Shown: positions 7,736 through 51,198, counted from the first letter of the stretch. The stretch: DNA of 64,000 nucleotides from Candidatus Enterousia sp. (GCA_045614145.1 JAZLCH010000007.1:5806-69805); one strand, 5' to 3'. Notes: generated from the letters alone by a model not told the origin. Numbers and translations: made by a program.

Positions 7736-7774
7736 GATTCCTTGTCCCAGTAAAAAAATCGCCCAGAAAATTTA

Positions 7775-20260: not shown

Positions 20261-20803
20261 TTATGCGCTTTGGGTGGCCAGTTGCTTTGCCTGGGCAAAA
20301 AATGTCAGGGATTGCCCCAGCAGGCCATCTGTAAACGTGTTAGACAGTAAACCATCTGGTTCGGTCGTTGTCAAATGGTGCAGGAAATTATCTGCGCGGT
20401 GCATATAGTTGTCAATGTTGCGGGCGACTTCGGAATCCAGTTTTATTGCGCGACGTAATTTTTCCAGGGCAAATGGGTTTTTTGCATATTCGTCCATTAT
20501 GCCGCCCAGGGCGCGCCATAATGCATGCTCGGGCGTGTTGCGTGGCATAATGTCAATGGCGGCCATGACAGGAATCAGATTTTGTAACAGGTCTTGGTAA
20601 ATCATTTCGGCGTTTTCTGCAACCGCATTCGTTGCCGATTTGTTTTTTAGTATCGATTGAATCTTTACCATCAGGTTGTATTGGTGTTCCAGCGTTTTGT
20701 TTATGCCGTTGATTTGTGAATTTGTTCGATGGATGTAATATGCAATAAAACCAACTGATAAAACAATAATGCTAAGTGCGATAAAAATTATAGTGTTTGT
20801 CAT
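20261..20803 (-). CDS. Hypothetical single-pass membrane protein, 180 aa from the Met at 20803
   Basis: RBS AGGAGA upstream of the internal Met, followed by an N-terminal TM helix. It is the first gene of the suf-containing operon. Confidence 0.5.
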   Translation of the reverse strand: MTNTIIFIALSIIVLSVGFIAYYIHRTNSQINGINKTLEHQYNLMVKIQSILKNKSATNAVAENAEMIYQDLLQNLIPVMAAIDIMPRNTPEHALWRALGGIMDEYAKNPFALEKLRRAIKLDSEVARNIDNYMHRADNFLHHLTTTEPDGLLSNTFTDGLLGQSLTFFAQAKQLATQSA

Positions 20804-20979
20804 GTTCTTTGTCTCCTGGGGGGTAATTCTGGGCATTAGTATAACATCTTTTTGCGATTCGCGCGATTTTATCTTTTGCAGATTGATTTATGTGTGTTTT
20901 AGGTCTTGCACAGATTCGGCCAAATTGTTATAATATATTACAAAGCAAGGGAAGTTTTATAAGGGAAAGGAAGGTTCTT

Positions 20980-21918
20980 ATGTTCCGTAAGGTGTTGATT
21001 TTTGCTATGTTTGCAACGGCGGCAGGCTATTGCTTTGCGTCGGAATTGCCCCAGGTTATAACGTCAGAAGTTTTTTATGAACAAGACAGGTATGTTGATG
21101 GTTCAGATTATGAACAGGTTGACGTGATGCAGGTCGAGGTGCCGGCGTGGCCCTTGGCAGGCAGTGATGCGGATGTCGAAGTTTCGTGCGAACATGGGGC
21201 GTGTAATAAAAAAAAGCAGGATGAAAATATTCGTATAGTCTCAAAGATTGGGGCGGATTTAGTCGTGGAAAATAATTTTAATCTGGGGGCACGTGGTTCG
21301 TTTGCTGGTTGGTCTGGTGGCGCAAATATGTTGCACGGTAATCAGGTTCCGGTTGGCTTTGATGATGAATGCAATAATAATTCAGAAATGCCATTGCTGC
21401 ATCGCGAGGTTTTAGAGGATGATGGTGGTAATGTGTTGGCTGTGTCGCGCAGTGGTCGCAAGAATTGCGGTAAATATGCCAATAATTATGAGGGCTTTGC
21501 TTTGCGTAACGGTATGCGGGTTGATGCAAAAACGGCAGACGGTAAAAGAATTGTGACCAAAGAAGATGGAACAAGTGTTGTAGAAGAATTTGTAGAAGAA
21601 TCTGAAACGGAAATTTTGGTCGATGCGTCTGCAGATGCCGAAGCGCCACAGATTGTGAAAGACCAGGTTCGTTCTTGGGTTGTGGCAAATGGTCAGACGT
21701 TGCGCGAAGTGCTGCAATCGTGGTGTGACAAAGAAGGTTGGGATTTGGTGTGGACAACCCCGCGTGAGTATCCGATTGAGGCCAGTGCTGTCTTTAAGGG
21801 GCGCTTTGTCGATGTGGCGTCGGCGTTGGTTCGTAATTTTGGGCGTGCGACACCAATCCCGTATGCGAAGTTCTATAAGGGAAATCGTGTGTTGGTGATT
21901 TCTGCTTCGCAGGAATAG
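20980..21918 (+). CDS. Secreted protein with a TcpQ/BfpG-like C-terminal domain (type IVb pilus secretin accessory protein-like)
   Basis: Signal peptide. The C-terminus WVVANGQTLREVLQSWCDKEGWDLVW...FKGRFVDVASALVRNFG resembles the TcpQ domain. It immediately precedes a lipoprotein secretin, as tcpQ precedes tcpC and bfpG precedes bfpB. Confidence 0.45.
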   Translation: MFRKVLIFAMFATAAGYCFASELPQVITSEVFYEQDRYVDGSDYEQVDVMQVEVPAWPLAGSDADVEVSCEHGACNKKKQDENIRIVSKIGADLVVENNFNLGARGSFAGWSGGANMLHGNQVPVGFDDECNNNSEMPLLHREVLEDDGGNVLAVSRSGRKNCGKYANNYEGFALRNGMRVDAKTADGKRIVTKEDGTSVVEEFVEESETEILVDASADAEAPQIVKDQVRSWVVANGQTLREVLQSWCDKEGWDLVWTTPREYPIEASAVFKGRFVDVASALVRNFGRATPIPYAKFYKGNRVLVISASQE

Positions 21919-21951
21919 TTTAATATACAGATGTCGTAGGAGAATATAAAT

Positions 21952-23580
21952 ATGATTAAGCCAATGAAATTTTTGATTTTGTCTGTGCTGGTGTTGGCAA
22001 CTGTTACAGGGTGTGCTAAGCGCGAATCGGCCAAGGTTGCGGCATCTGTTGACCAGGATTTTATTAATGCGTACGATGCGTTTGAAATGGCAAAGAATCC
22101 GCGTGCTAAGGTGGCTAGTGGTGATACTGTTTCTATGTCTGAAGGGGTTTGGTTGGGTAATAAATCTGTTGCATTAGAGCATAGAAATAAATTGCCGTCT
22201 AAATTTGAAACGGATATGGGTGTGACTATTTTATTGGATGAGCCTGTGGCGTTGCAGGTGTTGGCAAATGATGTTTATTCTGTGACAGGAATTCCGGTTA
22301 AAATTGATGGTCAAGTGTCAGGGGAAAAATTAAAAAAACAGGTTAATGTTGCCTATACGGGACGTTTGTCGGGTTTGCTGAATCAGGTTGCGACAGATTT
22401 GGATTTGTTGTGGTATTATGACAATAATTCAATTGTTTTCTATGAAACAGAAACGAAAACGTTTTCGTTATATGCACTGGGGACTGAGGTTGCGTATCAG
22501 ACGTCTGTGTCAACGGATAATTCAAATGAGGTGTCTTTGGAATCAACGTTGAAGGAGTGGGATGAAGTTGAAAAAGCGATTTCTTCAATTATTGGTAAGG
22601 CGGAAAATGCGGACTTTACCGTGTCGCGCAGTTTGGGAACAATTACGGTGACTGCATCACCATCTGTGTTAGCGCGCGTTAGTGAATATATTGAACGTCA
22701 GAATAAGCGTTTGAGCCAGCTGGTTACAATCGACGTTAAGGTTTTGCAGGTCACGATTTCTAATAATTCGGCATTTGGTCTGAATTTGGCGGCGGCAATT
22801 AATTCTACGTCGGGGTTGAATATTGTTGCAAATCCAAAAAATAATCTGGCATCGACCGAGGCCAGTTCTATGAATATTGCGGTTCTGTCAAATACAGTAT
22901 CTGCATTGACGGGTGCGACGCACATGGAAAATGGTTCGTTGGTAGATGGTGCGTATACAAATGATCAAATTATGAATGGGTCTTTGTCGGGTGCCGCAGG
23001 CAGTAATGCATTAATTGAGGCCTTGGCAAAGCAGGGCAAGGTTTCTTTGGTGACGAATGTTGGTGTGACGACACGTTCAAATCGTGTTGCACCCGTCAGC
23101 AATACCCGTACAACAGGATATATTAAACGTTTTGAATCACGCAACTTTACAACCGTTGAATCCAGTACAGTTGATCAGGATGATTTAGAGACAGGATTTA
23201 CAATGCAGTTATTGCCAAATGTGTTAGAAAATGGGAAAATTTTGTTGCTGTTCCGTATGTCTGTGCGTGAATTGCTGCGTATGTCAACCCAGACAATTGG
23301 CGAAGTGACACTGCAGTTGCCAGAGGTGGAAGAACGCAGCTTTATGCAAGAAGTTATTATGGAATCGGGTCAGATGTTGGTTGTTTCTGGTTTTGAAAAG
23401 CAGACAAACCAAGATACGCGTTATGGATTGGGTGATCCGGACTTTATGGCGCTGTCTGGTTCGCGTGAAACCCAGGCAACGCGTGAAGTATTGGTCGTTA
23501 TCCTGACGCCACAGGTTCTGATTAGCCCAATGGATATGGAACGCAGTATTCAGCAGCATTGGGGCGCGCCACTGAATTAG
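21952..23580 (+). CDS. Outer-membrane lipoprotein secretin (BfpB/TcpC/PilN type IVb-pilus secretin family)
   Basis: Lipobox VTGC. A secretin-N-like segment (TITVTASPSVLARVSEYIERQNKRLSQLVTIDVKVLQV). A C-terminal secretin domain ending ...VLVVILTPQVLI. 542 aa, close to BfpB in size. Confidence 0.7.
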   Translation: MIKPMKFLILSVLVLATVTGCAKRESAKVAASVDQDFINAYDAFEMAKNPRAKVASGDTVSMSEGVWLGNKSVALEHRNKLPSKFETDMGVTILLDEPVALQVLANDVYSVTGIPVKIDGQVSGEKLKKQVNVAYTGRLSGLLNQVATDLDLLWYYDNNSIVFYETETKTFSLYALGTEVAYQTSVSTDNSNEVSLESTLKEWDEVEKAISSIIGKAENADFTVSRSLGTITVTASPSVLARVSEYIERQNKRLSQLVTIDVKVLQVTISNNSAFGLNLAAAINSTSGLNIVANPKNNLASTEASSMNIAVLSNTVSALTGATHMENGSLVDGAYTNDQIMNGSLSGAAGSNALIEALAKQGKVSLVTNVGVTTRSNRVAPVSNTRTTGYIKRFESRNFTTVESSTVDQDDLETGFTMQLLPNVLENGKILLLFRMSVRELLRMSTQTIGEVTLQLPEVEERSFMQEVIMESGQMLVVSGFEKQTNQDTRYGLGDPDFMALSGSRETQATREVLVVILTPQVLISPMDMERSIQQHWGAPLN

Positions 23581-23730
23581 GTGCTGTATTGATTTAGGTT
23601 TGAAACGGACATCTGGGGGCGGTATATGCATCTTGGGTGTCCGTTTTTTTGTGGCTGGATTGCCGGGGATGATTTATTTGTTAAGTGTTGTAATGATATG
23701 TTTTGGCTTTTGTCTGTGGTTTTTTTGTGG

Positions 23731-23736
23731 TATAAT
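23731..23736 (+). promoter_or_regulatory. Extended -10 element (TGgTATAAT) upstream of the outer membrane protein gene
   Basis: gTGgTATAAT lies 22 nt before the RBS AAAAGGAG. Confidence 0.4.
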
Positions 23737-23758
23737 TTTACGTAAAAGGAGATTAATT

Positions 23759-24976
23759 ATGAAAAACACATTGTTTGGTCTTATGGGGGTGTTGTCTGTG
23801 TTAGCGGTCTTGGATGCAAATGCGGCAACAAATTTTGGTGCGCGTTCGGCATCCAGTGCAGATTTGTCAGGTGCGCCGGCGGTACGTACGCGTGAAAAGG
23901 TGAATTATCAGAAATATCAGACGCGCACAACGAAAAAAACCTATGAAACAAAAGATGCGGCAGATTTGTACTATACAAAACCGGCAAATCGCAGTGCGCT
24001 GTATAAACAGTATGAGGGGGCGTCTTCATCTGCAGCATCTGCGGTCAAGACAACAAAGCGCACAACGCGTTCTGAAAAGGTTGTTAATAAGTTGTCACGT
24101 AAATATTTTATAGCCCATCCGTTCTATCAGCCTTTGGGTGGTGTGTTTGGTTCGGTGACCGATTTGGGTTATACGTCCAGTGGATATGATTTTGATATTG
24201 CAACCACAACACCAATTGGTGGTAACTGGGATATGAGCCGTTTTACCATCAAAGAAGATCTTAGTTATGGTATCACAGATACAATTGCAATGATGGCTAT
24301 GTTGCAATTTGATATGGATGAATATAAATTCGAATGGGACGATAATTCGTCATCTGATAAAATGGATGATAATGGTTTAAATATGTTTGGTATTGGTGGT
24401 CAATGGCGTTTCAAGGATAATGAAAAATGGATTGGTATGGCATCCGCATACTACCAGCATCAGAAAGATATTTCTGATAACTTCTTGTTAGAGGTTAAGG
24501 CAGGATACAAAATTGCATCGTCAACTGTTTATGGGCTGATGCGTGGATGGTATCTGGCATTGGATGGAAATTCATATGGTAATGGGGTAGAAGGTAAGGA
24601 TGAAGCTGGAAATTACCAGGTTTTGTATATGCCGTACCAAATTGGTGAAGATTCAGCAATCTATTTCGAAGGTGGAATGGGTGTGTTCAGCGTGCTGAAC
24701 AAAGATTGGACGCTGAATCTGGAGGGTGTATTTGGACACTATGATTGGCACAATTCTGCAACGATCAAGGGGGCCATTGGGTGGCAGCCAAATGATTGGT
24801 TCGCGTTGAATCTGTATGCAAAAACAGTGTTCTGGGACAGTGCAGATGGCAAGAAATTGGACACATTGTATTTGTCGCCAGATTTGGGGTATGACCAATG
24901 GACAAATATTGGCAAAGCAAAGTTAGATAATTATGCGGAAACGTCAATCGGCCTGCAGGTTATGTTCCAGTTCTAG
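23759..24976 (+). CDS. Outer-membrane beta-barrel protein, about 405 aa
   Basis: Signal peptide MKNTLFGLMGVLSVLAVLDANA, alternating beta strands, C-terminal ...GLQVMFQF. Confidence 0.6.
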   Translation: MKNTLFGLMGVLSVLAVLDANAATNFGARSASSADLSGAPAVRTREKVNYQKYQTRTTKKTYETKDAADLYYTKPANRSALYKQYEGASSSAASAVKTTKRTTRSEKVVNKLSRKYFIAHPFYQPLGGVFGSVTDLGYTSSGYDFDIATTTPIGGNWDMSRFTIKEDLSYGITDTIAMMAMLQFDMDEYKFEWDDNSSSDKMDDNGLNMFGIGGQWRFKDNEKWIGMASAYYQHQKDISDNFLLEVKAGYKIASSTVYGLMRGWYLALDGNSYGNGVEGKDEAGNYQVLYMPYQIGEDSAIYFEGGMGVFSVLNKDWTLNLEGVFGHYDWHNSATIKGAIGWQPNDWFALNLYAKTVFWDSADGKKLDTLYLSPDLGYDQWTNIGKAKLDNYAETSIGLQVMFQF

Positions 24977-25050
24977 GGACGTGCTAAATTAATGCCCCCG
25001 GTTACGGGGGCAGGGGTGTTTTATCGCAAAAGGGGGAGAGAGGGTTCACT

Positions 25051-25782
25051 ATGCGTAAATTTTTGTCAGTATTTATGTTGTCTGTTTGTGTGTTGGTGCC
25101 AACGTTGTCACATGCAAATGATTTGTCCCAGGATACGTCTGATCCATTGTTTATGTTGCAGACCGAAGGGATTTTGTCGCGTTCGTCTTTGACGTATTGG
25201 GACCATATCTTGCGTGCAGGACAGGCAATGTCGTATGGTATGAACAATCGTTTAACAATTGGGGCGGATGTTCATTATCAGCATGATTTTAATGGCCCAG
25301 AAGACGGCTTTTCTGCGATTGATTTGGGGGCGACGTATCGTATGGGGGCGGCAGATGATAACGATTCCCACATAATATCGGATGTCTTGTTTGGTTTTAA
25401 ATTTGGTGGCAGTTCGCGTGTGCGCACACCAGATTATGCGGATTCAACGTATTATGCGGGTTTGCGTTTTGGGCGTCAGTATGCAGGAATGACACTGGCA
25501 GCGACAATTAAGTCTACATGGGTGTTTGATGATGTGCGTGGTGTTGCATTCTTGGATTTTACGCCAGAGGCATACTTTCGTATCGCACCTGATTTTCGTT
25601 TGGGAACAGGGCTGACCGTGCGCAAGGCAACCCATAAAATCGATGGAATGGATTTTGACCAAGAATGGCTGCATACGAAGCTGGTACGTCAATTTGGCTA
25701 TACCCAATATATTGGGCGTGTTGATTATGAATTTGAATCTGATGATTTTCAGGTTGGCGCCCAGATTAACGTGCTGTTTTAA
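25051..25782 (+). CDS. Outer-membrane beta-barrel protein, 243 aa
   Basis: Signal peptide, C-terminal ...GAQINVLF. Confidence 0.6.
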   Translation: MRKFLSVFMLSVCVLVPTLSHANDLSQDTSDPLFMLQTEGILSRSSLTYWDHILRAGQAMSYGMNNRLTIGADVHYQHDFNGPEDGFSAIDLGATYRMGAADDNDSHIISDVLFGFKFGGSSRVRTPDYADSTYYAGLRFGRQYAGMTLAATIKSTWVFDDVRGVAFLDFTPEAYFRIAPDFRLGTGLTVRKATHKIDGMDFDQEWLHTKLVRQFGYTQYIGRVDYEFESDDFQVGAQINVLF

Positions 25783-25846
25783 CCGGTTGCGTATTGTAAG
25801 GTTTGATGTAAACGGGGCGGTTGTGTCCCGTTTTTATTAATCAAAG

Positions 25847-25867
25847 TGTTTGAATTTTTTTTTTTTT
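25847..25867. repeat. Homopolymeric poly-T tract (T21)
   Basis: 21 consecutive T residues immediately upstream of a TATAAT at 25872-25877. Confidence 0.9.
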
Positions 25868-26020
25868 TTTTTTTTTTGCTGTATAATGTGTGTGCATTGG
25901 GAAAACTGTGTGGGGTGTAACGGCCCGTTCAGTCGTCAGTGATGACGTTAAATACCAGAACCGATGTTAGAAAAAATAATTTGCAATGGTATGGCCATGA
26001 TTTTATGTAAACGACGTAAA

Positions 26021-27084: not shown

Positions 27085-27981
27085 ATGAAAAAGTTCATTT
27101 CTGTTGTTTTATCTGTTTTGTGTATTGTTCCTGCTGTCGCGGCAACAGGCCGGGGACGCGCAGGAAATACACTGTCTGCACAGATGGATGCGGCGCAGGA
27201 ACGCGCGGGCGTTGTTTCGAAAAATCAGATCTCCGCCATGGCGGGATTGGCGCCTGAGACCGTTGTTGTTCAAAAATCCAGCCTCAAGGTTGATAATGAT
27301 GTTACTGATGATATCACGACAGATGCGATGATTGCGCCAGATGTAACAATTTCTGGTGGTGCACTAAAGGATATGCGTGAAAAGGAAAAAGGTGCCTGTA
27401 TCGCTAATAATATTGGTGTGGGGAATACTTTTGTTTGGGCGTCGCGTTACAGCAATCTGAACAGTTATTCAACAATGGTGGAAGATATTGAAAATCCAGA
27501 AAATAATACATGCTTTGTTAAGGTTGAATTAAAATCAAACGATTCGAAAATTGGTGTGTCGGATGTGCCTGTGAAATATTATGAATGGGGACAGAATATT
27601 ACATGTGGCGCGTGGGCTGATTATGATGTGCTGAAAAAACGTATTTTAGATGCTAAAAAAACGGCACGAACATGGGCAACTGTTGCTGGCGCAGTTGGTG
27701 GTGCAGGTGTCGGTGTTGGTGCGATGGAAGCGTTCGGTAACAGATTGATTGGTGGTGATGTAGAAGGACAAAAGCATCTGGAACGAAATAATCCAACCGC
27801 TTTGTTGCGGTCACAGCTGGCGGTGTTAAAACAAGATAATCAGGCAGAATATAAAAAGTTTATTAGTAATTTAAGGGTGCTGAAGTTGGAATGTGCCAAG
27901 GAACATGTTTTGAATTCAGATGATATTGAGCTGAAGGCGATGTGTGAAGACTTTAAGCCTGTATTTGATTTGGCTGTGTAA
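27085..27981 (+). CDS. Secreted hypothetical protein, 298 aa
   Basis: Signal peptide MKKFISVVLSVLCIVPAVAA. No recognisable domain. Own terminator. Confidence 0.5.
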   Translation: MKKFISVVLSVLCIVPAVAATGRGRAGNTLSAQMDAAQERAGVVSKNQISAMAGLAPETVVVQKSSLKVDNDVTDDITTDAMIAPDVTISGGALKDMREKEKGACIANNIGVGNTFVWASRYSNLNSYSTMVEDIENPENNTCFVKVELKSNDSKIGVSDVPVKYYEWGQNITCGAWADYDVLKKRILDAKKTARTWATVAGAVGGAGVGVGAMEAFGNRLIGGDVEGQKHLERNNPTALLRSQLAVLKQDNQAEYKKFISNLRVLKLECAKEHVLNSDDIELKAMCEDFKPVFDLAV

Positions 27982-29062: not shown

Positions 29063-29460
29063 GAAAAATGTTGTCTATACACTGTATATACAAATGGCAG
29101 AAAACAGGCGGAAAAACGAATCGTTGTCAAAAAATAAAAGTGTTTTTTTGAGGGAAGATTTGCTTGTAAACCGGAAATAATGTTTTAACTTGTTTGTCGT
29201 ATCCAAAACGAGAAGAAGGTAATCAAAAAACAAGATTGGTTTTATTAATGGCATTAATTGTAACAGCCGGAAAATAAAATTAATCTATAACATTTAAAGA
29301 ACGCGAGAGAGTTTTAGTAGGACAATATAAAATACCATGAAAGTGGCGTTTTATGTAGGTGACTTTTACAACCTGGATTCGAAGAAATAAGTCTGGTTGT
29401 AGAATATAAGGTCTGGGATGGATAACTCTTTTGAAAAAAAAGAAAAAGGGAGAAAAGGGC

Positions 29461-30741
29461 ATGCAGACAATGGCGGCAAAATCACAAATGACAAACTTGG
29501 AAACAATCAAGGGGGCCATTGCCGCAAAAATTGATGCAGCATCTTTTACTTCTTGGATTGCACCTTTGTCTTTTGATGTTGTTGATGGTGTTTTGGTTTT
29601 GGGCGCACAGAATCAGTTCTCGGCAGATTTTATTAACAGTGTTCATTTCGGTGCAATTTCATCGGTAGCGGCAGAATTTGGCTTGACAGCATCAGTTGTA
29701 GTTCGTGCGGCAAAACAAACAGTCGCGCCAGTCGCAAATGATAATCGTGCCCAGGCATATGCGCCAGCGGCACCGGTTGCATCTAATACGCTTGCGTTTG
29801 ATTCTTTTGTTTGTTCAGATGAAAATTTGTTTGTTGTTTCTGCGGGTAAAAAAGTCGCAGCGGGGTCGGTTCCTTTTTCTCCACTGTTTATTTACGGGCC
29901 AGCGGGGGCGGGTAAATCTTTGTTGACAGAATGCATCGCAGGCGCATCAACTGCAAAAGTTGTTAAAATGAGTGGCGCACAGTTTGTTTCTGAATTCACA
30001 CGCAGCCTGAAAGAACATAATGTTTTCGCGTTCAAGGATTTTTGTCGTAATTGTGATACTTTTATTTTAGACGATGTTCAGGCATTGTCTGGCAAGAAAG
30101 CGTCAACCGAAGAATTTATGCAGTTGGTTGTTGATTTGCGCGGGGCGGGTAAAAATGTTGTACTGACTGCAAATGCGATGCCAGGTAATCTGACAGGTTT
30201 TGACCGTCATGCACAGTCTTTGATGGCGTCTGGTTTGGTTGCGGATGTTGTGGCACCAAATGCACATGTAAAATCTGTTATGCTGATGCGCGCAGGTGTG
30301 AAATCTGATGTTGCGAATACACTGGCGGGGCGTATCGCAAATGATGGTCACATGATTGCAGGTGTTGCAACAAAAATCAAAGCGTATACAGATTTGATGG
30401 GGGCGTGTGTTGATATGTCGGTTGCAACGCGTCTGTTGGCGGATACGCTGCAGGTGGTTAAGACACCGGTTGCAATGGTTAAGATGATGTGTGAAAAATT
30501 GGGTGTGTCTTATGATGCTGTTTGTGGGGCGGGGCGCAGCCGCAGCCTGGTGTTGGCGCGTCAGATTATGATGAGCGTTTTAAAAGAAGCGACACAGTTG
30601 TCTTTGTCTGAAATTGGTAATTTTGTTGGTGGTCGTGATCATGCCACGGTTTTGTACGCGATTAAGCAGATTGAAAAGAATGTTGCAGGGGATTTGGTAT
30701 TGGCAGCACAGATTCAACAGTTGGTTGAAGAATGCAAATAA
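29461..30741 (+). CDS. dnaA: Chromosomal replication initiator DnaA (divergent)
   Basis: Walker A IYGPAGAGKSLL, the box VII region, and C-terminal domain IV GRDHATVLYAIKQIEK. The ORF-table start at 29431 (MKKKKKGEKG) lies in the A-rich RBS region; the start at 29461 is preferred. Confidence 0.75.
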   Translation: MQTMAAKSQMTNLETIKGAIAAKIDAASFTSWIAPLSFDVVDGVLVLGAQNQFSADFINSVHFGAISSVAAEFGLTASVVVRAAKQTVAPVANDNRAQAYAPAAPVASNTLAFDSFVCSDENLFVVSAGKKVAAGSVPFSPLFIYGPAGAGKSLLTECIAGASTAKVVKMSGAQFVSEFTRSLKEHNVFAFKDFCRNCDTFILDDVQALSGKKASTEEFMQLVVDLRGAGKNVVLTANAMPGNLTGFDRHAQSLMASGLVADVVAPNAHVKSVMLMRAGVKSDVANTLAGRIANDGHMIAGVATKIKAYTDLMGACVDMSVATRLLADTLQVVKTPVAMVKMMCEKLGVSYDAVCGAGRSRSLVLARQIMMSVLKEATQLSLSEIGNFVGGRDHATVLYAIKQIEKNVAGDLVLAAQIQQLVEECK

Positions 30742-30808: not shown

Positions 30809-33079
30809 ATGAAAAAAATGTTATCATTTTTTTTCAGTGTGATTTTAATTGCGCCCTGGGCATTTGGTGCCAGTGGCGCTGTTTCGCGTGTTATTCCAAC
30901 CAGTGTAGCTGATGCCAAAAATCAAGAGATGTCAGGTGGTGGGATTGTTGCGCGTACTGCGACGCGTGCGATATCAGACGCGGGTGAAAAAAGTAGGGGT
31001 GTTGAAAAAACAGATAATGTTGCAGCGCGCAGCACGGTGTCGCGTCTGGTCACCGGTGTGCCAGCGGTTAAACAGGAAAAAGATGTCAAGGTTCAGGCGC
31101 GTGGGGCGGTTGCTTCGCGTTCTGTAAAATCTGGAACGGATGCGCGCAGCGGTTTGGATGCAGCAGTTAATACGGTTGGACGCAATAAGCGTGTCGCAGA
31201 CGCCAGTATAAACAGTAATCCTGCGGTTCGCAGGTTGGGGGTGACATTACGCCCCAGCACGGCCGAGGTTGGTGGACGTGCGACGATTGGTGATACAGGT
31301 GTGCAGACGGGGTCAAATATAGACGAACAATTACGCAATGTGCATTCGCGTGCGGCAAAAAAAGAAATTACAGCCGAAGGTATTGCGGAGGCTAAGACAC
31401 GATTGGAACAGACAGCAGAATTGAATAAGTCGTGTCAGGAACAGTATAATGATTGTATGGATCAATTCTGTGCGGTGATAGATTCAAACCAGGGACGGTG
31501 TTCGTGTTCGTCTAATTTATCCAGGTATACTAAGGTTGAAGAAGCTGTAAAGGATGCGAATAATCAGCTGAACGAGGTTGCGCAGCGTATACGTTATGTT
31601 GGTTTGTCTGCAGACGAGATTCGCGCAATCTTGACCGAGACCGAGGCAGAAGAGGTATTGTCGGGTACAACGGATAATTCTGAAAACAGAAATATGTTGG
31701 AACAGATTGAAGAATTAATTCGTGACCCGGTTTCAAATACGGCGACATTTTCTGGGACAGATGATTTCGGACTGAATATGGATTTGGATTTTTCATCAGA
31801 AAGTGGTGATTTGTTTAATCTGGACTTTTTGAATTTTGGTAATACAGGCAGTTTTTCAAATTTGCGTGGGGCGGAATTGTATCGGGCGGCCAAGAATCGC
31901 TGTAATACGGTTTTAAATCAGTGCAAAGAGGCAGGATCGACAACGTCACAGATTACGGGAAATTATGATTTGGCGATTGATAAAGATTGTATCGCATATG
32001 AAAAAGGATTAAAGAAGATGAATGAAACACTGGTCGCAAATGTGGGCAGTGCGAATCGTATGCTGCAAAAGGCGCGATTGGCCGTGTTGCAGAATAAAAA
32101 CATGTATGATGCCAAGGGGTGTATTGGTGCGTTGGAGGCATGTATGAAGGACGAGATGGTTTGTGGCGAAAAGTACTATAAGTGTATTGACCCAACCAAA
32201 ATATATATTGATGAAAATGCCGAAGTTGTGTTGGGACAACCGGTGTCGCAGATTCAGAATTTTATGACATCTTATAATAATGCAGCGATTAATAAGGACT
32301 TTTTGAAAGGTGCGTATGAGACAATAACTATAAATACGACAAATTGTACGGGGGAAAATGGTCCCAAATGTGTTGCCAAATATTTGTTACAAAAAATTGG
32401 AACCAAGCAAAAGGTGACGGATGAAGGGTTGTGTCGCGCGGTTTTGGACAAGTGTCAGGCGTATACATATAATTCCGAAGGTGTTTATCAACCATATAAT
32501 GATGTTGTTGTGAATTATATTCAGCGTGCAATGGTGAACATTCGTGCGGCCCAAAGTATGGCAATTTCAGAATATGCATCAACGTGTATCGTTGATATCG
32601 CAGATTGTTATAATTCACAGATAACCCAGGTTAATTCATGGGCCTCAGGTGCAAATGTGGGCAGTGTTCAAAAGGTTCTGGCCGGGGCATGTCGTAATGT
32701 GGCACTGACCTGTGCATATGCAGTGTTCAAGGATGATACGGATAGTTGTCCATCGAAAGATCCTGCGACTTGTATTGCTTCGATTTCAGAAATGTTCTAT
32801 CAATCGTTGTTATGTCCGGAAAATTCAATGTATGAAGCTAGCGGGAAGGATGATGAAAAAACTGATAGCGAGAAAGCAAAGTATGTTAATTTGCATTGTA
32901 AATGTAATGAGGGGTATCAGGTATTTGGTGGTGCGTGTTTGGTTAACTGTGGTGGTTTAGAAAACCGTGACAGTTATGGCGTTTGTCAGTGTGTAGAGAA
33001 TGCTTCTTTGAAGAACGGTGTGTGTTATTGTGATGAAGGATATGAAAAAAAAGATAACACCTGTGAAAAGAAAAAATAA
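30809..33079 (+). CDS. Large secreted Cys-rich protein with an EGF-like C-terminal region, 756 aa
   Basis: Signal peptide. The N-terminal region has repeated A-x-R-S/T motifs. The C-terminus is CKCNEGYQVFGGACLVNC...CQCVENASLKNGVCYCDEGYEKKDNTCEKK. Own terminator. Confidence 0.55.
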   Translation: MKKMLSFFFSVILIAPWAFGASGAVSRVIPTSVADAKNQEMSGGGIVARTATRAISDAGEKSRGVEKTDNVAARSTVSRLVTGVPAVKQEKDVKVQARGAVASRSVKSGTDARSGLDAAVNTVGRNKRVADASINSNPAVRRLGVTLRPSTAEVGGRATIGDTGVQTGSNIDEQLRNVHSRAAKKEITAEGIAEAKTRLEQTAELNKSCQEQYNDCMDQFCAVIDSNQGRCSCSSNLSRYTKVEEAVKDANNQLNEVAQRIRYVGLSADEIRAILTETEAEEVLSGTTDNSENRNMLEQIEELIRDPVSNTATFSGTDDFGLNMDLDFSSESGDLFNLDFLNFGNTGSFSNLRGAELYRAAKNRCNTVLNQCKEAGSTTSQITGNYDLAIDKDCIAYEKGLKKMNETLVANVGSANRMLQKARLAVLQNKNMYDAKGCIGALEACMKDEMVCGEKYYKCIDPTKIYIDENAEVVLGQPVSQIQNFMTSYNNAAINKDFLKGAYETITINTTNCTGENGPKCVAKYLLQKIGTKQKVTDEGLCRAVLDKCQAYTYNSEGVYQPYNDVVVNYIQRAMVNIRAAQSMAISEYASTCIVDIADCYNSQITQVNSWASGANVGSVQKVLAGACRNVALTCAYAVFKDDTDSCPSKDPATCIASISEMFYQSLLCPENSMYEASGKDDEKTDSEKAKYVNLHCKCNEGYQVFGGACLVNCGGLENRDSYGVCQCVENASLKNGVCYCDEGYEKKDNTCEKKK

Positions 33080-33114: not shown

Positions 33115-35094
33115 TTATACGAACAAGTCTTTTACAAATTGGGCGTGTTCTGTTATGAACTTGAATCGAAATTCTGGTTTTTTTCCCATCAGTTCAGAAA
33201 CAATCGTACGTGTTTTTTCCGTGTCTTCGGCCCCTTCTTCGGTGCGGGGGGGCAGGTCAACACGTATCAAACGACGCGTTTTTGGGGACATGGTTGTTTC
33301 TTTTAGTTGATTGGGCATCATTTCACCAAGTCCCTTGAATCGTGATATTTCAACGCGTTTGTTTTTATATTTGTTTGCCTTTAAATTTTCCAATTCTTCG
33401 TCCGTATCAACGTAAATCGATTCGGTGCCACATGTTAATTTATACAGCGGAGGACATGATAAATATAGGTGGCCACCATAGATTAATTGAGGCATGAATT
33501 GATAAAAGAACGCCATCAGTAATGATGCAATATGGCTGCCGTCAACGTCGGCATCGGTCATGATAATTATTTTTTCATAACGCAATTTGTCTTGGTTCCA
33601 ATCTTTGGCAGTGCCGGCCCCGATAATGTCTATAAGGTCATTTAATTCTTTGTTCGCACCGAATCGTTCGTCGGAATTTGATATAACATTTAAAACCTTG
33701 CCACGCAGGGGCATAATTGCCTGGGTCGCACGATCGCGTGCCTGTTTTGCGGTGCCGCCAGCTGATTCCCCCTCAACAATAAATAATTCTGTGCCGGCGA
33801 TACCATGTTTGGAGCAATCCGCCAATTTTGCGGGCATGCGAATGCGTTTCGTTGGTGTTTTGCGCGCAACATCTTTGACCTGTTTTGTCTTAATACGCGC
33901 ATTTGCCAAATTGATTACAAATTCCAGTAATGCGTTTGCAGTCTTTGGGTCAGATGCCAAAAACATTTCCCATGGGTCGCGCAGTGCGTTTTCTGTATAG
34001 CGGGCAATTTCTGGGTTGGACAGTTTTTCTTTGGTCTGGCCCAAAAATTGTGGCGTTTTGTAAAACACAGATACGATTGCAGCAACGGAATCAAATACAT
34101 CTTCGCCGATGATTGATGCGGCGGCCTTGTTATTTGTTTTTTCGCCGTATGCTTTAAGCCCCTTGGTAATTGCGGATTTAAAGCCCGTTTCGTGTGTGCC
34201 ACCGTCAATTGTTGCAATTGTATTACAGTATGATGAAAAGAATCCATCATCAGATGCCGCGCCATTTTCGTCTGTTAAAAATGTCAGCGCCCATTCAACG
34301 CGCCCGCAGTCGTCAGGGAAATCAACGCTGCCACTGAAAATGCGTGGCAGGATGCGCGGTTTTGAATCTGTTTTCTCTGCCAGGAAGTCTGCAACACCAT
34401 TTGGATAATAAAATGTTGTTGTGGCAGGGATGTTCATGTCTTCGGTTAGTAATTCGGGATTGCAATGCCAATCAATTTTTACACCGCGGGACAGGAACGC
34501 CTTGGCACGGGCCATGCGGTAAATCTTGATTGGTTTAAAGGTCGCGTTCGTACCGAATATGTCATCATCAATTGTAAAGCGAATCTTGGTGCCGTGGTTT
34601 TTTGTTGCATCCCCGCGGGTCATGGGGGACGTGGTCAGACCACGTGAAAACGTCTGGTGCCAGTTATAGCCATCACGTGCAATATCAACAACCATTTCTG
34701 ATGACAGGGCATTCACAACCGCCGAGCCAACGCCGTGCAGACCGCCACTGGTCTTATAAACATTATTGTTAAATTTACCGCCAGAATGAAGGGTGGTTAA
34801 AATAACCTCTAGGGCGGATTTGCCAGGGTATTTGGGGTGTTCATCAACGGGGATGCCACGTCCGTCGTCTGCGATTTCAATTGTTTTAGAATCAATTAAA
34901 TTTACGGTGATTTTCTTGGCAAAACCAGCGACGGCTTCGTCAATAGAATTGTCCATTATTTCAATTGGCAGGTGGTGCCATGCCTTTTCATCTGTGCCGC
35001 CGATGTACATTCCAGGGCGCAGACGTACGGGTTCCAATCCTTCCAACACCTGAATGTCGGACGCGTCATATGTGTTTGTCTTTTTCTCTGTCAT
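33115..35094 (-). CDS. parE: DNA topoisomerase IV subunit B (type IIA topoisomerase B subunit)
   Basis: GHKL ATPase N-terminus, TOPRIM domain, EGDSAGG. At 659 aa it lacks the GyrB insert, which favours ParE. Confidence 0.8.
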   Translation of the reverse strand: MTEKKTNTYDASDIQVLEGLEPVRLRPGMYIGGTDEKAWHHLPIEIMDNSIDEAVAGFAKKITVNLIDSKTIEIADDGRGIPVDEHPKYPGKSALEVILTTLHSGGKFNNNVYKTSGGLHGVGSAVVNALSSEMVVDIARDGYNWHQTFSRGLTTSPMTRGDATKNHGTKIRFTIDDDIFGTNATFKPIKIYRMARAKAFLSRGVKIDWHCNPELLTEDMNIPATTTFYYPNGVADFLAEKTDSKPRILPRIFSGSVDFPDDCGRVEWALTFLTDENGAASDDGFFSSYCNTIATIDGGTHETGFKSAITKGLKAYGEKTNNKAAASIIGEDVFDSVAAIVSVFYKTPQFLGQTKEKLSNPEIARYTENALRDPWEMFLASDPKTANALLEFVINLANARIKTKQVKDVARKTPTKRIRMPAKLADCSKHGIAGTELFIVEGESAGGTAKQARDRATQAIMPLRGKVLNVISNSDERFGANKELNDLIDIIGAGTAKDWNQDKLRYEKIIIMTDADVDGSHIASLLMAFFYQFMPQLIYGGHLYLSCPPLYKLTCGTESIYVDTDEELENLKANKYKNKRVEISRFKGLGEMMPNQLKETTMSPKTRRLIRVDLPPRTEEGAEDTEKTRTIVSELMGKKPEFRFKFITEHAQFVKDLFV

Positions 35095-38533: not shown

Positions 38534-38998
38534 ATGAATCAGGAATCAGGTCGTTCAATGATTGAAATGCTGGGGGTGTTGGCAATTATGGGGGTTATTA
38601 CCGTTGGGGCAATTGGTATGATTTCAACCGCGATGCGTACGCAAAAATTGACAACTGTTAACGACCAGGTGGTTCAGATGGTTACGATGGTTCGTAACAT
38701 TCATGGTGAATATGATGATTTTTCAAATATGAATGGAACAACTATTTTTGGCGCAATCGGTATGAGTAATCAGAACCCGTATGGTGGGACGTATACTTTG
38801 TCTGTTAATCCGTCAAACCCACGTCAGTTTATTGTTGGGATAAATGGTTTGGGGCAATCTGAGTGCGAATCGCTGTTAGCCAAGGCGTGGTCTGATTCAG
38901 TTGGGTATCAGTTGTCGAATGGTAAACAGGGGGGGGCAACCGGTGATTGTAAATCAGCGGGGGCAAATAATTCTGTTCAGATTGTTTATGGTGAATAA
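38534..38998 (+). CDS. Type IV pilin (prepilin with G/-1, E/+5, C-terminal disulfide pair)
   Basis: MNQESG|RSMIEMLGVLAIMGVITVGAIG class-III signal. A C-terminal C...C pair. 154 aa. Confidence 0.65.
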   Translation: MNQESGRSMIEMLGVLAIMGVITVGAIGMISTAMRTQKLTTVNDQVVQMVTMVRNIHGEYDDFSNMNGTTIFGAIGMSNQNPYGGTYTLSVNPSNPRQFIVGINGLGQSECESLLAKAWSDSVGYQLSNGKQGGATGDCKSAGANNSVQIVYGE

Positions 38999-50955: not shown

Positions 50956-51142
50956 ATGGCATATCTATGAACGGTGCCGTCCCCTCATGTAGCGTGTGTA
51001 CACTACGGGGACGGCACTGTCCATATCTATACCATTATCTTTAATTTTGTTCCGCTGCGAGGTGTTGGGCGGGGCTCAGCATGTAGCGTTATGTACACTG
51101 CGCCAACGGATTTTAACATATCTAAACATTCTGATTTATTTA
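50956..51142 (+). repeat. Conserved-loop hairpin repeat element, copy C (two tandem units, directly 3' of trxB)
   Basis: Unit 1 stem ATGGCATATCTATGAACGGTGCCGTCCCC...GGGGACGGCACTGTCCATATCTATACCAT around CATGTAGCGTGTGTACACTACG. Unit 2 is GTTGGGCG...CATGTAGCGTTATGTACACTGCG...CGCCAAC plus the shared tail ATATCTAAACATTCTGATTTATTT. Confidence 0.75.
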
Positions 51143-51198
51143 AACGCCCTGCAAGGGGTTGGGGCCATATAATTTTTATTTTATTTTATTTGTTTTCG

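What the first reader, a model, noticed from the sequence alone, without database searches (positions are those of the whole stretch)
20980..25782. Isolated type IVb-pilus-like outer-membrane module: TcpQ/BfpG-like protein, lipoprotein secretin and two beta-barrel outer membrane proteins, with pilin genes elsewhere
A signal-peptide protein carrying a TcpQ-like C-terminal domain (20980-21918) directly precedes a 542-aa lipoprotein secretin of the BfpB/TcpC/R64-PilN type (21952-23580). This is the same order as tcpQ-tcpC and bfpG-bfpB. Two predicted beta-barrel outer membrane proteins follow (23759-24976 and 25051-25782).

No pilus ATPase, platform protein or prepilin peptidase gene is adjacent. 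The only type IV pilin (38534-38998) and a VirB2/TrbC-like pilin (55844-56200) are encoded 13-30 kb away as solo genes. A scattered or reduced type IV pilus or secretion apparatus in an apparently streamlined, intracellular-style genome is unusual. It could represent a host-interaction or DNA-uptake system; dprA is also present.
Basis: partly seen in the sequence, partly recalled or inferred. Interest (0 to 1): 0.6.

Follow-up and report, generated by a model that had tools for sequence, protein, structure and literature searches.

The report
Split type IVb pilus, outer-membrane half
Two adjacent genes in a tiny-genome gut bacterium (Candidatus Enterousia) encode the outer-membrane pore and its partner protein of a known kind of adhesive hair (type IVb pilus), whose motor genes sit elsewhere in related genomes; the two neighbouring outer-membrane protein genes do not belong to it.

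Summary
The core observation holds. Window 20980-21918 encodes a secreted protein with a C-terminal TcpQ/BfpG domain. Window 21952-23580 encodes a 542-aa lipoprotein secretin of the PilN/BfpB type. Both match the two chains of the solved BfpB-BfpG complex, and the BfpG-binding motif of BfpB is conserved.

The "four-gene module" does not hold. In 84 related loci the pair is always present, but the two putative outer-membrane protein genes never follow it. In this genome they are a 2.4-kb insertion in a slot that carries different cargo in other species.

The apparatus is not reduced. The organism is Candidatus Enterousia (Alphaproteobacteria, order Rs-D84, genomes of about 0.75-1.0 Mb). Congeners carry pilO2-pilP-ATPase-platform at a second conserved locus, seen once in the same assembly and twice on the same contig as the secretin. 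More distant relatives still have one contiguous operon, TcpQ-PilN-PilO-PilP-ATPase-platform, colinear with R64/PAPI-1-type plasmid clusters. The operon was therefore split.

The solo pilin (38534-38998) is type IVb-like. The "VirB2-like" gene has no support. No prepilin peptidase was found, and the second locus was not verified in the window's own genome.

Verdict: a new member of a known kind, under strong purifying selection; modest interest.

The parts
20907..20934 (+). Promoter-like site (TGCACA-16-TATAAT with an extended TG) in the 143-bp divergent intergenic region upstream of the TcpQ-like gene
   Evidence: This is a consensus match only. It favours the ATG at 20980 over the ORF-list start at 20890.
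20980..21918 (+). TcpQ/BfpG/PilL-like periplasmic secretin partner, 312 aa. It has a Sec signal peptide (…AGYCFA|SE, not a lipobox), an acidic Cys-containing N-terminal region with no known domain, and a C-terminal TcpQ domain (about residues 231-309 of the 312-aa protein).
   Evidence: PF10671 E 5.8e-18. PDB 9u5s chain R (BfpG) E 3e-15, aligned over BfpG residues 23-112 including strands beta3 and beta5 that contact BfpB. Present next to the secretin in all 84 related loci. Median dN/dS 0.10.
21952..23580 (+). PilN/BfpB-type lipoprotein secretin, 542 aa. It has a lipobox with C21, an LG domain carrying a conserved BfpG-binding motif (D58…V66-W67-L68-G69-N70…S72), N0/N3 domains, a secretin domain (about residues 338-523) and no S domain.
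   Evidence: PF00263 1.4e-13 and TIGR02520 5.6e-71. Aligns to BfpB 9u5s_A over residues 33-117, 130-303 and 338-523. The motif was mapped onto BfpB D38…I46-Y47-I48-G49-N50…S52. C21, W67, L68 and G69 are invariant in 20 homologues down to 31% identity. Median identity across species is 89.4% and median dN/dS is 0.055.
38534..38998 (+). Solo type IVb-like major pilin, 154 aa. It has a class III signal (MNQESG|RSMIEML…, Gly at -1 and Glu at +5) and a C-terminal Cys pair. It is the probable substrate of the machine.
   Evidence: Weak N_methyl match. PDB TcpA 8uhf E 5.9e-4 and CofA 9iuf E 0.018. Aligns to the plasmid pMsip01 major pilin N-terminus at E 6e-5. The N-terminus is invariant in 19 loci. 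In L175 it lies 5.4 kb from pilOPQR.
23581..26016 (+). 2.4-kb species-specific insertion in the variable slot downstream of the secretin. It is NOT part of the pilus system. It carries OMP405 (23759-24976) and OMP243 (25051-25782), each followed by a terminator-like hairpin.
   Evidence: The window aligns to L005 up to 23579 and again from 26017, and about 300 bp replace the insertion there. The pair is absent from this slot in 84 of 84 loci and is found elsewhere in L008, L044 and L163. Other species hold other cargo in the slot. Terminators are at 24993-25012 and 25810-25833.
23759..24976 (+). Putative outer-membrane beta-barrel protein, 405 aa (signal peptide …DANA|A; C-terminus …IGLQVMFQF). 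Cargo gene, function unknown.
   Evidence: Supported by sequence features only. No Pfam, NCBIfam or PDB match. AlphaFold pLDDT 31.6.
25051..25782 (+). Putative outer-membrane beta-barrel protein, 243 aa (signal peptide …LSHA|N; C-terminus …VGAQINVLF). It travels with the 405-aa gene.
   Evidence: Supported by sequence features only. No significant family or PDB match. AlphaFold pLDDT 35.3. It is paired with the OMP405 homologue in L008 and L163.
20261..20836 (-). Conserved, divergently transcribed 191-aa single-pass membrane protein of unknown function. It always lies between sufB and the TcpQ-like gene in genomes with the split arrangement. Whether it belongs to the system is unknown.
   Evidence: Present in 84 of 84 loci and in L087, L092 and L093. 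Not seen near the contiguous operons L085, L086 and L094. No family match.

Best explanation
Window 20980-23580 is the outer-membrane half of a chromosomal type IVb pilus machine of the R64/PAPI-1 (PilL-N-O-P-Q-R) type in Candidatus Enterousia. In this lineage the ancestral operon has been split.

Proposed mechanism, by homology with the solved BfpB-BfpG complex:
1. The secretin is acylated at Cys21 and delivered to the outer membrane by the Lol pathway (lolA is in the window).
2. It oligomerises into a gated channel.
3. The secreted TcpQ-like protein binds, through its N0-like C-terminal domain, to the conserved beta1-linker-beta2 motif in the secretin's LG domain. It hoops the ring at the level of the N3 domain and stabilises assembly.
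4. The inner-membrane half is encoded at a separate locus: PilO2, PilP, a PilB/GspE-type assembly ATPase with a tetracysteine motif, and a GspF/PilC-type platform. It polymerises the solo 154-aa type IVb-like pilin, and the filament leaves through the secretin.

Shown here: the homology of both proteins and of their contact regions; the conserved pairing; strong purifying selection; the second locus in congeners; and the contiguous operon in outgroups.

Inferred: the complex itself, its stoichiometry, the pilin assignment, the presence of the second locus in this very genome, and the biological role. The most likely role is adhesion to a partner cell or host surface in a partner-dependent organism.

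The two OMP genes are unrelated cargo inserted downstream.
For: Identity of the two proteins:
- Pfam, NCBIfam and PDB matches for both proteins, both to chains of one solved complex.
- The BfpG-binding motif is conserved and invariant among homologues.

Organism:
- It is an Enterousia. The secretin is 84-99% identical to those of named Ca. Enterousia MAGs, whose genomes are 0.75-1.0 Mb.

Conservation:
- The TcpQ-secretin pair is present in 84 of 84 loci.
- Median dN/dS is 0.055 for the secretin, against 0.070 for sufB and 0.079 for gatA.
- Against L005 the secretin is 99% identical in protein but 88% in DNA.

Second locus:
- lpxC, a lipoprotein gene, pilO2, pilP, T2SSE, T2SSF and gyrB lie together in L088-L090 and in 80 metagenome contigs.
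- The PilP model TIGR03021 and the GspE/PilB and GspF/PilC models match these proteins.
- L090 and L057 come from the same assembly.
- L055 and L175/L049 carry both halves on the same contig.

Operon history, ordered by secretin identity to the window:
- Contiguous TcpQ-N-O-P-Q-R at 40% (L085) and 64% (L086).
- Loosened at 69% (L094).
- Split at 70% and above (L093, L092, L087, Enterousia).

Comparators:
- Plasmid pMsip01 has the same order TcpQ-PilN-PilO2-PilP-ATPase-T2SSF-pilin.
- The pilin's best PDB hits are type IVb pilins.
Against: - pilO/P/Q/R are not in the 64-kb window, and the window's own genome could not be read beyond it. Their presence there is extrapolated from congeners.
- No prepilin peptidase, minor pilin or retraction ATPase was found in any fetched locus.
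- The secretin scores below the TIGR02520 equivalog cut-off.
- The pilin's match to type IVb pilins is weak (E 5.9e-4), and its predicted mature N-terminus (Arg) is unusual.
- The one published genomic survey of Rs-D84 that could be read here (PMC12306168) does not report type IV pili in the order; an earlier paper on Enterousia that it cites was not held.
- No structure model or experiment supports the complex in this organism.
Confidence: 0.8

Rival explanations
1. One reading: a self-contained four-gene outer-membrane module (TcpQ-like protein, secretin and two beta-barrel OMPs) that works together.
For: - The four genes are co-oriented in the window, and no terminator-like hairpin lies between the secretin and the first OMP gene.
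- In one metagenome contig (L163) the same OMP pair lies 1 nt after the platform gene pilR. The cassette has therefore landed next to pil genes twice.
Against: - The OMP pair is absent from this position in 84 of 84 related loci, including L005, whose secretin is 99% identical.
- It is a clean 2.4-kb indel.
- The slot carries unrelated cargo in other species.
- The pair occurs away from pil genes in L008 and L044.
- Sampling was restricted to the neighbourhoods of pil genes, so adjacency is over-represented.
Confidence: 0.05
2. An orphan secretin pair that works without a pilus, for example as a gated outer-membrane channel for uptake or export in a genome that lacks standard transporters, or as a decaying relic.
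For: - No inner-membrane pilus genes lie in the window.
- Rs-D84 genomes are reported to lack standard sugar, amino-acid and peptide transporters.
- The operon has been physically uncoupled.
Against: - Congeners keep an intact pilO2-pilP-ATPase-platform locus and a conserved pilin.
- A dN/dS of 0.055 rules out decay.
- The BfpG-binding motif and the partner protein are retained.
Confidence: 0.07
3. The same split machine, but its main role is DNA uptake (competence or nucleotide scavenging) rather than adhesion.
For: - dprA lies 3-5 kb downstream of the secretin in the window and in 45 related loci.
- Nucleotide biosynthesis is reported missing in the comparably reduced UBA9783 genomes of the same study, which do carry competence genes. 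Whether this holds for Rs-D84 was not checked.
- From general knowledge, type IV filaments drive DNA uptake in many bacteria.
Against: - dprA is near-universal and sits beside dnaA among housekeeping genes.
- No comEA, comEC or comF was seen in the window.
- From general knowledge, R64/PAPI-1-type and Bfp/Tcp-type pili are known for adhesion, aggregation and mating-pair stabilisation, not for transformation.
- No retraction ATPase was found.
Confidence: 0.15
4. A remnant of an integrated conjugative plasmid or ICE (R64/PAPI-1-like thin-pilus genes) that is still part of a mobile element.
For: - The closest annotated relatives in the plasmid collection are PilN genes of conjugative plasmids: 2,473 of 2,926 matching records are conjugative.
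- Integrase and phage-like genes lie several kb upstream of the pilOPQR locus in L088-L090.
Against: - Identity to plasmid PilN is only about 27%.
- Both half-operons sit in conserved housekeeping synteny (sufBC, rpsT-plsY-dprA-dnaA, lpxKC, gyrB) across more than 80 species each.
- No relaxase, T4SS or integrase is adjacent to the pair.
- Selection is as strong as on core genes.
Confidence: 0.03

Closest known systems
EPEC bundle-forming pilus secretin complex BfpB-BfpG (PDB 9u5s; Pei et al., Nat Commun 2025, PMC12531336)
   Same: - A lipoprotein secretin with LG-N0-N3-secretin architecture and no S domain.
- A non-lipoprotein partner with a TcpQ-family, N0-like domain.
- The partner gene lies immediately upstream of the secretin gene.
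- The BfpG-binding motif (I46-Y47-I48-G49 in BfpB, V66-W67-L68-G69 here) and the BfpG beta3/beta5 regions align.
   Different: - Overall similarity is low (E 2e-43 for the secretin).
- The partner here is 312 aa with a roughly 210-residue acidic N-terminal extension, against 114 aa in the solved BfpG chain.
- The remaining genes are PilO2/PilP-type, not BfpC/BfpU-type.
- The genes are chromosomal and split, not a 14-gene plasmid operon.
- The 17-fold stoichiometry was not tested.
R64 thin pilus / P. aeruginosa PAPI-1 type IVb pilus clusters (PilL-(M)-N-O-P-Q-R-S…), represented here by Methylovorus plasmid pMsip01 (NC_012970.1)
   Same: - The same gene families in the same order in the outgroup operons L085 and L086: TcpQ-family protein, PilN secretin, PilO2 (PF06864), PilP (TIGR03021), GspE-type ATPase and GspF-type platform.
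- The best NCBIfam model for the secretin is PilN.
- The pilin N-terminus aligns with the plasmid's major pilin.
   Different: - Only about 27% identity to plasmid PilN, and the score is below the equivalog cut-off.
- The genes are chromosomal, in housekeeping synteny, with no conjugation genes nearby.
- In Enterousia the operon is split into two or three loci.
- No PilM, PilT, PilU (peptidase) or PilV/shufflon genes were found in the fetched loci.
- The pilin leader is short (6 residues).
Vibrio cholerae toxin-coregulated pilus TcpQ-TcpC
   Same: - The Pfam family of the partner (PF10671) is named after TcpQ.
- The order tcpQ-tcpC matches.
- TcpA is the pilin's best PDB hit.
   Different: - TcpC was not retrieved as a specific match.
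- The accessory genes differ.
- The Tcp genes lie in one pathogenicity-island operon.
Scattered type IVa pilus genes (pilQ, pilMNOP, pilBCD, pilA in several loci) of Pseudomonas, Neisseria and Myxococcus (general knowledge)
   Same: The machine is encoded at several chromosomal loci, and the secretin is separated from the ATPase and platform genes.
   Different: The subtype differs: PilQ with an AMIN domain, PilMNOP and a PilF pilotin there, against a lipoprotein secretin with a TcpQ partner and PilO2/PilP here. Type IVb systems are typically single operons, so the split is a departure for this subtype.

Membership tests
Secretin superfamily (PF00263) | A C-terminal secretin domain scoring above Pfam's gathering threshold | tested here: met
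   51.2 bits against a cut-off of 27.5, E 1.4e-13, residues 357-523 covering profile positions 1-168 of 169.
PilN-family type IVB pilus secretin (NCBIfam TIGR02520, equivalog) | A whole-protein score at or above the curated equivalog cut-off | tested here: not met
   239.6 bits against a cut-off of 287.65 (E 5.6e-71). It is the best-scoring model by far; the next is MshL at 98.6 bits. The protein is a divergent relative, not a certified equivalog.
PilN/BfpB/TcpC-type lipoprotein secretins | An N-terminal lipobox cysteine (self-piloting lipoprotein) and no C-terminal S domain | tested here: met
   The sequence reads …LATVTG|C21AK…. C21 is invariant in 20 homologues. The alignment to BfpB ends at the secretin domain, with only 19 residues beyond it.
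PilN/BfpB/TcpC-type lipoprotein secretins | An LG domain carrying the partner-binding region (beta1-linker-beta2, with the conserved aromatic and aliphatic pair Y47-I48 of BfpB) | tested here: met
   D58-T-V-S-M-S-E-G-V66-W67-L68-G69-N70-K-S72 aligns to BfpB D38…I46-Y47-I48-G49-N50-S-S52. W67, L68 and G69 are invariant in alignments A1 and A2. Actual binding was not tested.
TcpQ/BfpG family (PF10671) | A TcpQ domain above the gathering threshold, encoded immediately upstream of the secretin | tested here: met
   65.2 bits against a cut-off of 27, covering profile positions 1-79 of 80. BfpG chain 9u5s_R E 3e-15. The gap to the secretin gene is 33 bp. The adjacency holds in 84 of 84 loci.
TcpQ/BfpG family (PF10671) | An N0-like fold that forms a ring around the secretin N3 domain | not tested
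   No model was made for this protein. The feature is inferred from sequence homology only.
Type IVb pilus system, R64/PAPI-1 type | PilO2 (PF06864), PilP, a GspE-type assembly ATPase and a GspF-type platform in the same genome | not testable with these tools
The feature is met in congeners: L088-L090, 80 metagenome contigs, the same assembly as L057, and the same contig in L055 and L175.
Type IVb pilus system, R64/PAPI-1 type | All genes in one operon next to the secretin | tested here: not met
   The operon is split in Enterousia and in relatives at or above 70% secretin identity. It is contiguous only in L085 and L086.
Type IVb pilus system, R64/PAPI-1 type | A major pilin with a class III signal peptide, and a prepilin peptidase | tested here: inconclusive
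   A pilin is present, with Gly at -1 and Glu at +5, and hits to TcpA and CofA. However, its leader is short (6 aa) and residue +1 is Arg. No A24 peptidase was found in about 2.7 Mb of fetched loci, using only a crude motif scan and precomputed Pfam hits.
Outer-membrane beta-barrel proteins (the two ORFs at 23759-24976 and 25051-25782) | A signal peptide plus a C-terminal beta-signal (terminal Phe, with hydrophobic residues at -3, -5, -7 and -9) | tested here: met
   The C-termini are …I-G-L-Q-V-M-F-Q-F and …V-G-A-Q-I-N-V-L-F. The signal peptides end ANA|A and SHA|N (read directly from the sequence).
Outer-membrane beta-barrel proteins (the two ORFs at 23759-24976 and 25051-25782) | A beta-barrel fold or membership of a known OMP family | tested here: inconclusive
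   No Pfam, NCBIfam or PDB match. Single-sequence AlphaFold2 gave pLDDT 31.6 and 35.3, which is unusable.
VirB2/TrbC pilin (ORF 55844-56200) | A match to a VirB2/TrbC family model or to a solved T4SS pilin | tested here: not met
   No Pfam or NCBIfam hit, and the PDB hits are noise. Only the topology (a signal peptide plus two hydrophobic segments) resembles VirB2.

The most novel reading that the evidence does not exclude
A thin-pilus machine of the conjugative-plasmid type (R64/PAPI-1 family) has been domesticated as a core chromosomal organelle in the Rs-D84/Enterousia radiation. Its secretin evolves as slowly as tRNA-amidotransferase and Fe-S assembly genes. It would then be the key device by which these bacteria, with genomes under 1 Mb and no respiration or standard transporters, attach to and exploit a partner cell or the host. 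This would parallel the type IV pili of episymbiotic Patescibacteria. The system may also work with a non-canonical pilin-processing step, given the Arg at +1, the short leader and the absence so far of an A24 peptidase.
Probability: 0.25. Interest if true: 0.55.

Novelty: new member of a known kind. Interest (0 to 1): 0.3.

Why it matters
Ca. Enterousia and the order Rs-D84 are abundant, uncultured gut Alphaproteobacteria with genomes under 1 Mb. Their lifestyle (free scavenger or partner-dependent) is unknown. The only genomic survey of the order that could be read here reports no motility or pilus apparatus for it.

This work shows that they keep a complete-looking type IVb pilus core under core-gene-level purifying selection, in a genome that has shed most of its metabolism. 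That marks the pilus as a prime candidate for their cell-cell or host interaction device, and it gives concrete targets (pilin, secretin) for imaging, enrichment or antibody work.

The graded series from contiguous to loosened to split operon is also a tidy example of operon fission in a subtype that is normally a single operon. It is not a new kind of machine.

Tried and rejected
- Looking up the window's own secretin, and its 100%-identical database twin P0001, on encoding contigs found nothing on record. The source genome could therefore not be walked.
The rerun with A2 returned only close relatives (at least 84% identity), so the distant contexts had to come from a profile search plus contig look-ups.
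- My first Walker-A regex for PilB-like ATPases (G.[TS]GSGK) missed the Enterousia ATPase, which reads GPTSSGKST. It returned only an ABC protein, so that negative result was discarded.
- Single-sequence AlphaFold2 on both OMPs gave pLDDT 32 and 35, so no fold search was attempted. PDB sequence searches for them returned noise.
- The 124-146-aa lipoprotein upstream of pilO2 was tested as a PilM homologue against pMsip01 PilM and showed no similarity.
- A crude A24 prepilin-peptidase motif scan (G.GD.K) over all loci held at that point (about 1.7 Mb) gave no hits. This is weak negative evidence only.
- The Begmatov 2023 paper on Enterousia is not held in the library.
- I considered and rejected a T2SS/T3SS or filamentous-phage secretin (MshL 98.6 bits and SctC 29 bits against PilN 239.6 bits) and an ICE remnant (conserved housekeeping synteny).

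Full report
**1. What is in the sequence**

The ORF list shows four co-oriented ORFs at 20890/20980-21918, 21952-23580, 23600/23759-24976 and 25051-25782.

The first ORF most plausibly starts at the ATG at 20980. A purine-rich ribosome-binding site precedes it, and a promoter-like site lies at 20907-20934. It has a Sec-type signal peptide (…AGYCFA|SE, not a lipobox). It also has a C-terminal TcpQ domain (PF10671, E 5.8e-18, 65 bits against a cut-off of 27).

The second ORF begins 33 bp later.
- It has a lipobox (VTG|C21).
- It has a Secretin domain (PF00263, E 1.4e-13).
- Its best NCBIfam model is the PilN type IVB secretin TIGR02520 (E 5.6e-71, 239.6 bits). This is far ahead of MshL (98.6 bits) and SctC (29 bits), but below the equivalog cut-off of 287.65.

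Both proteins hit the two chains of one PDB entry, 9u5s, the EPEC BfpB-BfpG secretin complex. The secretin matches BfpB at E 2e-43 and the TcpQ-like protein matches BfpG at E 3e-15.

The secretin aligns to BfpB in three blocks: residues 33-117, 130-303 and 338-523. These correspond to the LG, N0/N3 and secretin domains, and there is no S domain.

The published structure (PMC12531336) places the BfpG-binding region at BfpB residues 39-53, with Y47 and I48 conserved and essential. In the HMMER alignment this maps onto D58…V66-W67-L68-G69-N70…S72 of the window protein. W67, L68, G69 and the acylated C21 are invariant in 20 homologues down to 31% identity. The BfpG strands beta3 and beta5, which pair with BfpB, also fall within the aligned part of the TcpQ-like protein.

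The identification of the first two genes is therefore confirmed, and a BfpB-BfpG-like complex is a well-founded inference.

**2. The two 'OMPs'**

Both ORFs have signal peptides and a textbook C-terminal beta-signal (…IGLQVMFQF and …VGAQINVLF). They have no Pfam, NCBIfam or PDB match. Single-sequence AlphaFold2 models were unusable (pLDDT 31.6 and 35.3). 'Outer-membrane beta-barrel' therefore remains a reasonable reading from sequence, not a tested one.

**3. The organism**

Homologues of the secretin at 84-99% identity come from gut MAGs labelled Alphaproteobacteria or Candidatus Enterousia. By the pattern used, 419 GTDB species genomes encode a relative.

Enterousia belongs to the order Rs-D84. 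Its genomes are about 0.75-1.0 Mb and lack the TCA cycle, respiration, flagella and standard transporters. A partner-dependent lifestyle has been proposed. That paper reports type IV pili only for a different lineage (PMC12306168).

The window itself is ordinary chromosome. It holds lolA, tatC, gatCAB, sufBC, rpsT, plsY, dprA, dnaA, parE, dnaJ, uvrC, dnaN, tsf, rpsB, serS, efp, tolB and other housekeeping genes. No pilus ATPase, platform or peptidase gene is present.

**4. Is it a four-gene module? No**

I compared 84 related loci (L001-L084).
- The order sufC-sufB-h191(-)-TcpQ(+)-secretin(+) is present in every locus that reaches that far.
- Homologues of the two OMP genes never follow the secretin.
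- L005, whose secretin is 99% identical, runs from the secretin straight to rpsT with a 354-bp gap.
- At the DNA level the window aligns to L005 up to 23579 and again from 26017. Positions 23580-26016 are therefore a clean 2.4-kb insertion.

The OMP pair travels as a two-gene cassette. It lies after dnaN in L008, near dnaA in L044, and directly after the platform gene in metagenome contig L163.

The slot downstream of the secretin is a variable cargo site, with a gap of 61-3647 bp. In other species it holds Cys-rich secreted proteins, small secreted proteins with a 330-aa partner, or uvrD.

The two adjacencies to pil genes (the window and L163) are noted. However, every locus I could see was chosen for lying near a pil gene, so I do not read them as linkage.

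**5. Is the apparatus isolated or reduced? No, it is split**

A search of 50%-identity representatives showed that the family drops from 82% to 43% identity outside the Enterousia clade. A profile of the distant members retrieved intermediates, and I looked up their contexts.

| Locus | Secretin identity to the window | Arrangement |
|---|---|---|
| L085 | 40% | One compact operon: TcpQ, Secretin, PAP_PilO, a ~230-270-aa protein, T2SSE ATPase, T2SSF platform |
| L086 | 64% | The same compact operon |
| L094 | 69% | Same genes, loosened by two inserted genes |
| L093, L092, L087 | 70%, 72.5%, 78% | Enterousia-like: TcpQ-secretin next to sufBC, without pilOPQR |

The plasmid pMsip01 has the same order: TcpQ-family protein, PilN, PilO2, PilP, ATPase, T2SSF, then pilin, PilM and PilV. 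This is the R64/PAPI-1 type.

With the outgroup PilO as a query, tblastn found a PilO start at the very end of Enterousia locus L055, 9.2 kb downstream of its secretin. That fragment retrieved 877 PilO2 proteins. Their contexts (L088-L090) show a second conserved locus:

lpxK, lpxC, lipoprotein (124-146 aa), PilO2 (420 aa), PilP (219-233 aa), ATPase (545 aa), platform (356 aa), a 189-aa gene on the minus strand, gyrB.

Further points on this second locus:
- NCBIfam assigns PilP to TIGR03021 (33.9 bits, cut-off 34.65), the ATPase to GspE/PilB models and the platform to GspF/PilC models.
- The ATPase carries the CxxC…CxxC motif of assembly ATPases (sequence).
- L090 is contig 7 of GCA_045645645.1, and L057, which carries that assembly's secretin, is contig 5.
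- In GCA_045635705.1 one 43-kb contig carries the pair, then pilOPQR about 20 kb further on, then the pilin 5.4 kb after that.
- A metagenome scan with the ATPase gave 80 contigs with the same second locus. None has a secretin within 10 kb.
- In L086 the contiguous operon lies next to gyrB, as the pilOPQR half does in Enterousia. The secretin half is therefore most simply the piece that moved.

None of pilO, pilP, pilQ or pilR is in the window. For this particular genome, the second locus is inferred from congeners.

**6. The pilin and the 'VirB2-like' gene**

The 154-aa ORF at 38534-38998 reads MNQESG|RSMIEMLGVLAIMGVI…, with Gly at -1 and Glu at +5.
- This N-terminus is invariant in 19 loci.
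- Its best PDB matches are the type IVb pilins TcpA (E 5.9e-4) and CofA (E 0.018).
- Its N-terminus aligns with the pMsip01 major pilin (E 6e-5).
- It is 80% conserved across species.

It is the likely substrate. The short leader and the Arg at +1 are atypical.

The 118-aa ORF at 55844-56200 matches nothing in Pfam, NCBIfam or the PDB. Only its topology recalls VirB2.

**7. Selection**

Across the related loci, median protein identity to the window is as follows:

| Protein | Median identity |
|---|---|
| Secretin | 89.4% |
| GatB | 89.4% |
| SufB | 82% |
| Pilin | 80.5% |
| TcpQ-like | 71% |
| DnaA | 68% |
| DprA | 66% |

Median dN/dS is 0.055 for the secretin and 0.10 for the TcpQ-like gene. 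For comparison it is 0.070 for sufB, 0.079 for gatA and 0.14 for sufC.

Two caveats apply. dS is near saturation, and the loci were ranked by secretin similarity, which slightly favours the secretin. Even so, the pair against L005 (99% protein identity, 88% DNA identity; dN/dS 0.01) is unambiguous. The genes are functional and tightly constrained.

**8. Mechanism (shown or inferred)**

Shown:
- Homology of both proteins and of their contact regions to BfpB and BfpG.
- The lipobox.
- The invariant pairing of the two genes.
- Strong purifying selection.
- The existence and conservation of the inner-membrane half and of the pilin in congeners.
- The ancestral contiguous operon.

Inferred:
- The Lol pathway delivers the acylated secretin to the outer membrane.
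- The secretin forms a ring.
- The TcpQ-like protein hoops the ring through beta-augmentation on the LG-domain motif.
- PilO2, PilP, the ATPase and the platform polymerise the pilin, and the filament leaves through the channel.

The biological role is open. I consider adhesion or aggregation (to a partner cell or host surface) most likely, given what the related systems do and the proposed lifestyle. DNA uptake is a minority alternative. The synteny with dprA is not evidence for it, because dprA sits in a housekeeping block beside dnaA.

**9. Comparison and novelty**

The system works like BfpB-BfpG or TcpC-TcpQ at the outer membrane. By gene content and order it belongs with the R64/PAPI-1 PilL-N-O-P-Q-R systems.

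It is a divergent member. It scores below the PilN equivalog cut-off and is about 27% identical to plasmid PilN.

It departs from the typical single-operon layout of type IVb systems. It is also chromosomal and behaves like a core gene set in a lineage with reduced genomes.

No prepilin peptidase, minor pilin or retraction ATPase was found in about 2.7 Mb of fetched loci. Those loci cover only a small, redundant part of the genome, so this is unresolved rather than negative.

Overall this is a new member of a known kind. It has a neat operon-fission history and some ecological interest.

Noticed in passing
window 23581-26016; L001-L084 just downstream of the secretin gene: The position immediately 3' of the secretin gene is a variable cargo slot across Enterousia species (gap 61-3647 bp). 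Depending on the species it holds the OMP pair, Cys-rich secreted proteins of 463-936 aa ending …YGG.TYH.IK, small secreted proteins ending PEGQVY(I/V)WFN with a ~330-aa partner, or uvrD plus an RNase T-like gene.
   Followed up: partly
L163:3341-5436: Homologues of the window's two OMP genes lie directly after the pilus platform gene, 1 nt after its stop codon, in one metagenome contig. A 1905-aa protein that also ends in a C-terminal Phe follows them. The cassette has thus landed next to a pil half-operon twice. Sampling was biased towards pil neighbourhoods, so the meaning is unclear.
   Followed up: partly
window 20261-20836 (-): A 191-aa single-pass membrane protein with no family match is divergently transcribed from the TcpQ-like gene. 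It is present in every genome with the split arrangement (84 of 84 loci, plus L087, L092 and L093), and its dN/dS is 0.084. It was not seen near the contiguous operons.
   Followed up: partly
window 1-64000: GC skew is positive in nearly every 2-kb bin across the window (from -0.02 to 0.34, mostly 0.1-0.3). Cumulative skew rises almost monotonically, with no lasting sign change at dnaA (29431-30741) or dnaN (42197-43315). The replication origin therefore does not appear to lie next to dnaA here.
   Followed up: no
window 52977-53921 (-): A class II fructose-bisphosphate aldolase gene is present (PF01116, E 1.5e-90), and also in L175. The published survey states that Rs-D84 genomes lack fructose-bisphosphate aldolase.
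   Followed up: no
window 38534-38998: After cleavage at ESG|R, the pilin's predicted mature N-terminal residue is Arg. The leader is only 6 residues long. Both features are invariant in 19 loci and atypical for type IVb pilins.
   Followed up: partly
window 33115-35094 (-): The 659-aa 'GyrB-like' gene is only 38% identical to the 799-aa GyrB that lies next to pilOPQR in congeners. It is probably ParE.
   Followed up: partly
window 30809-33079, 50974-52938, 7178-9349, 27085-27981: Several sizeable ORFs (756, 393, 259, 185, 524 and 298 aa) have no significant Pfam match. The 756-aa and 298-aa ORFs also have no significant NCBIfam match. The 298-aa ORF has a signal peptide and is conserved between plsY and dprA in 40 loci.
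   Followed up: no
L083 (CAVGNU010000003.1): A 98-kb contig carries a secretin 85% identical to the window's and upstream gene order typical of Enterousia, yet it is deposited under the name Bacteroides fragilis. This is probably a mislabelled bin.
   Followed up: no
L101 (ERZ1026780.1 NODE-1, 935,024 bp): A single 935-kb metagenome contig carries the pilOPQR locus. It is probably a near-complete Enterousia-like chromosome. It would be the ideal sequence for a whole-genome inventory of pilus genes.
   Followed up: no
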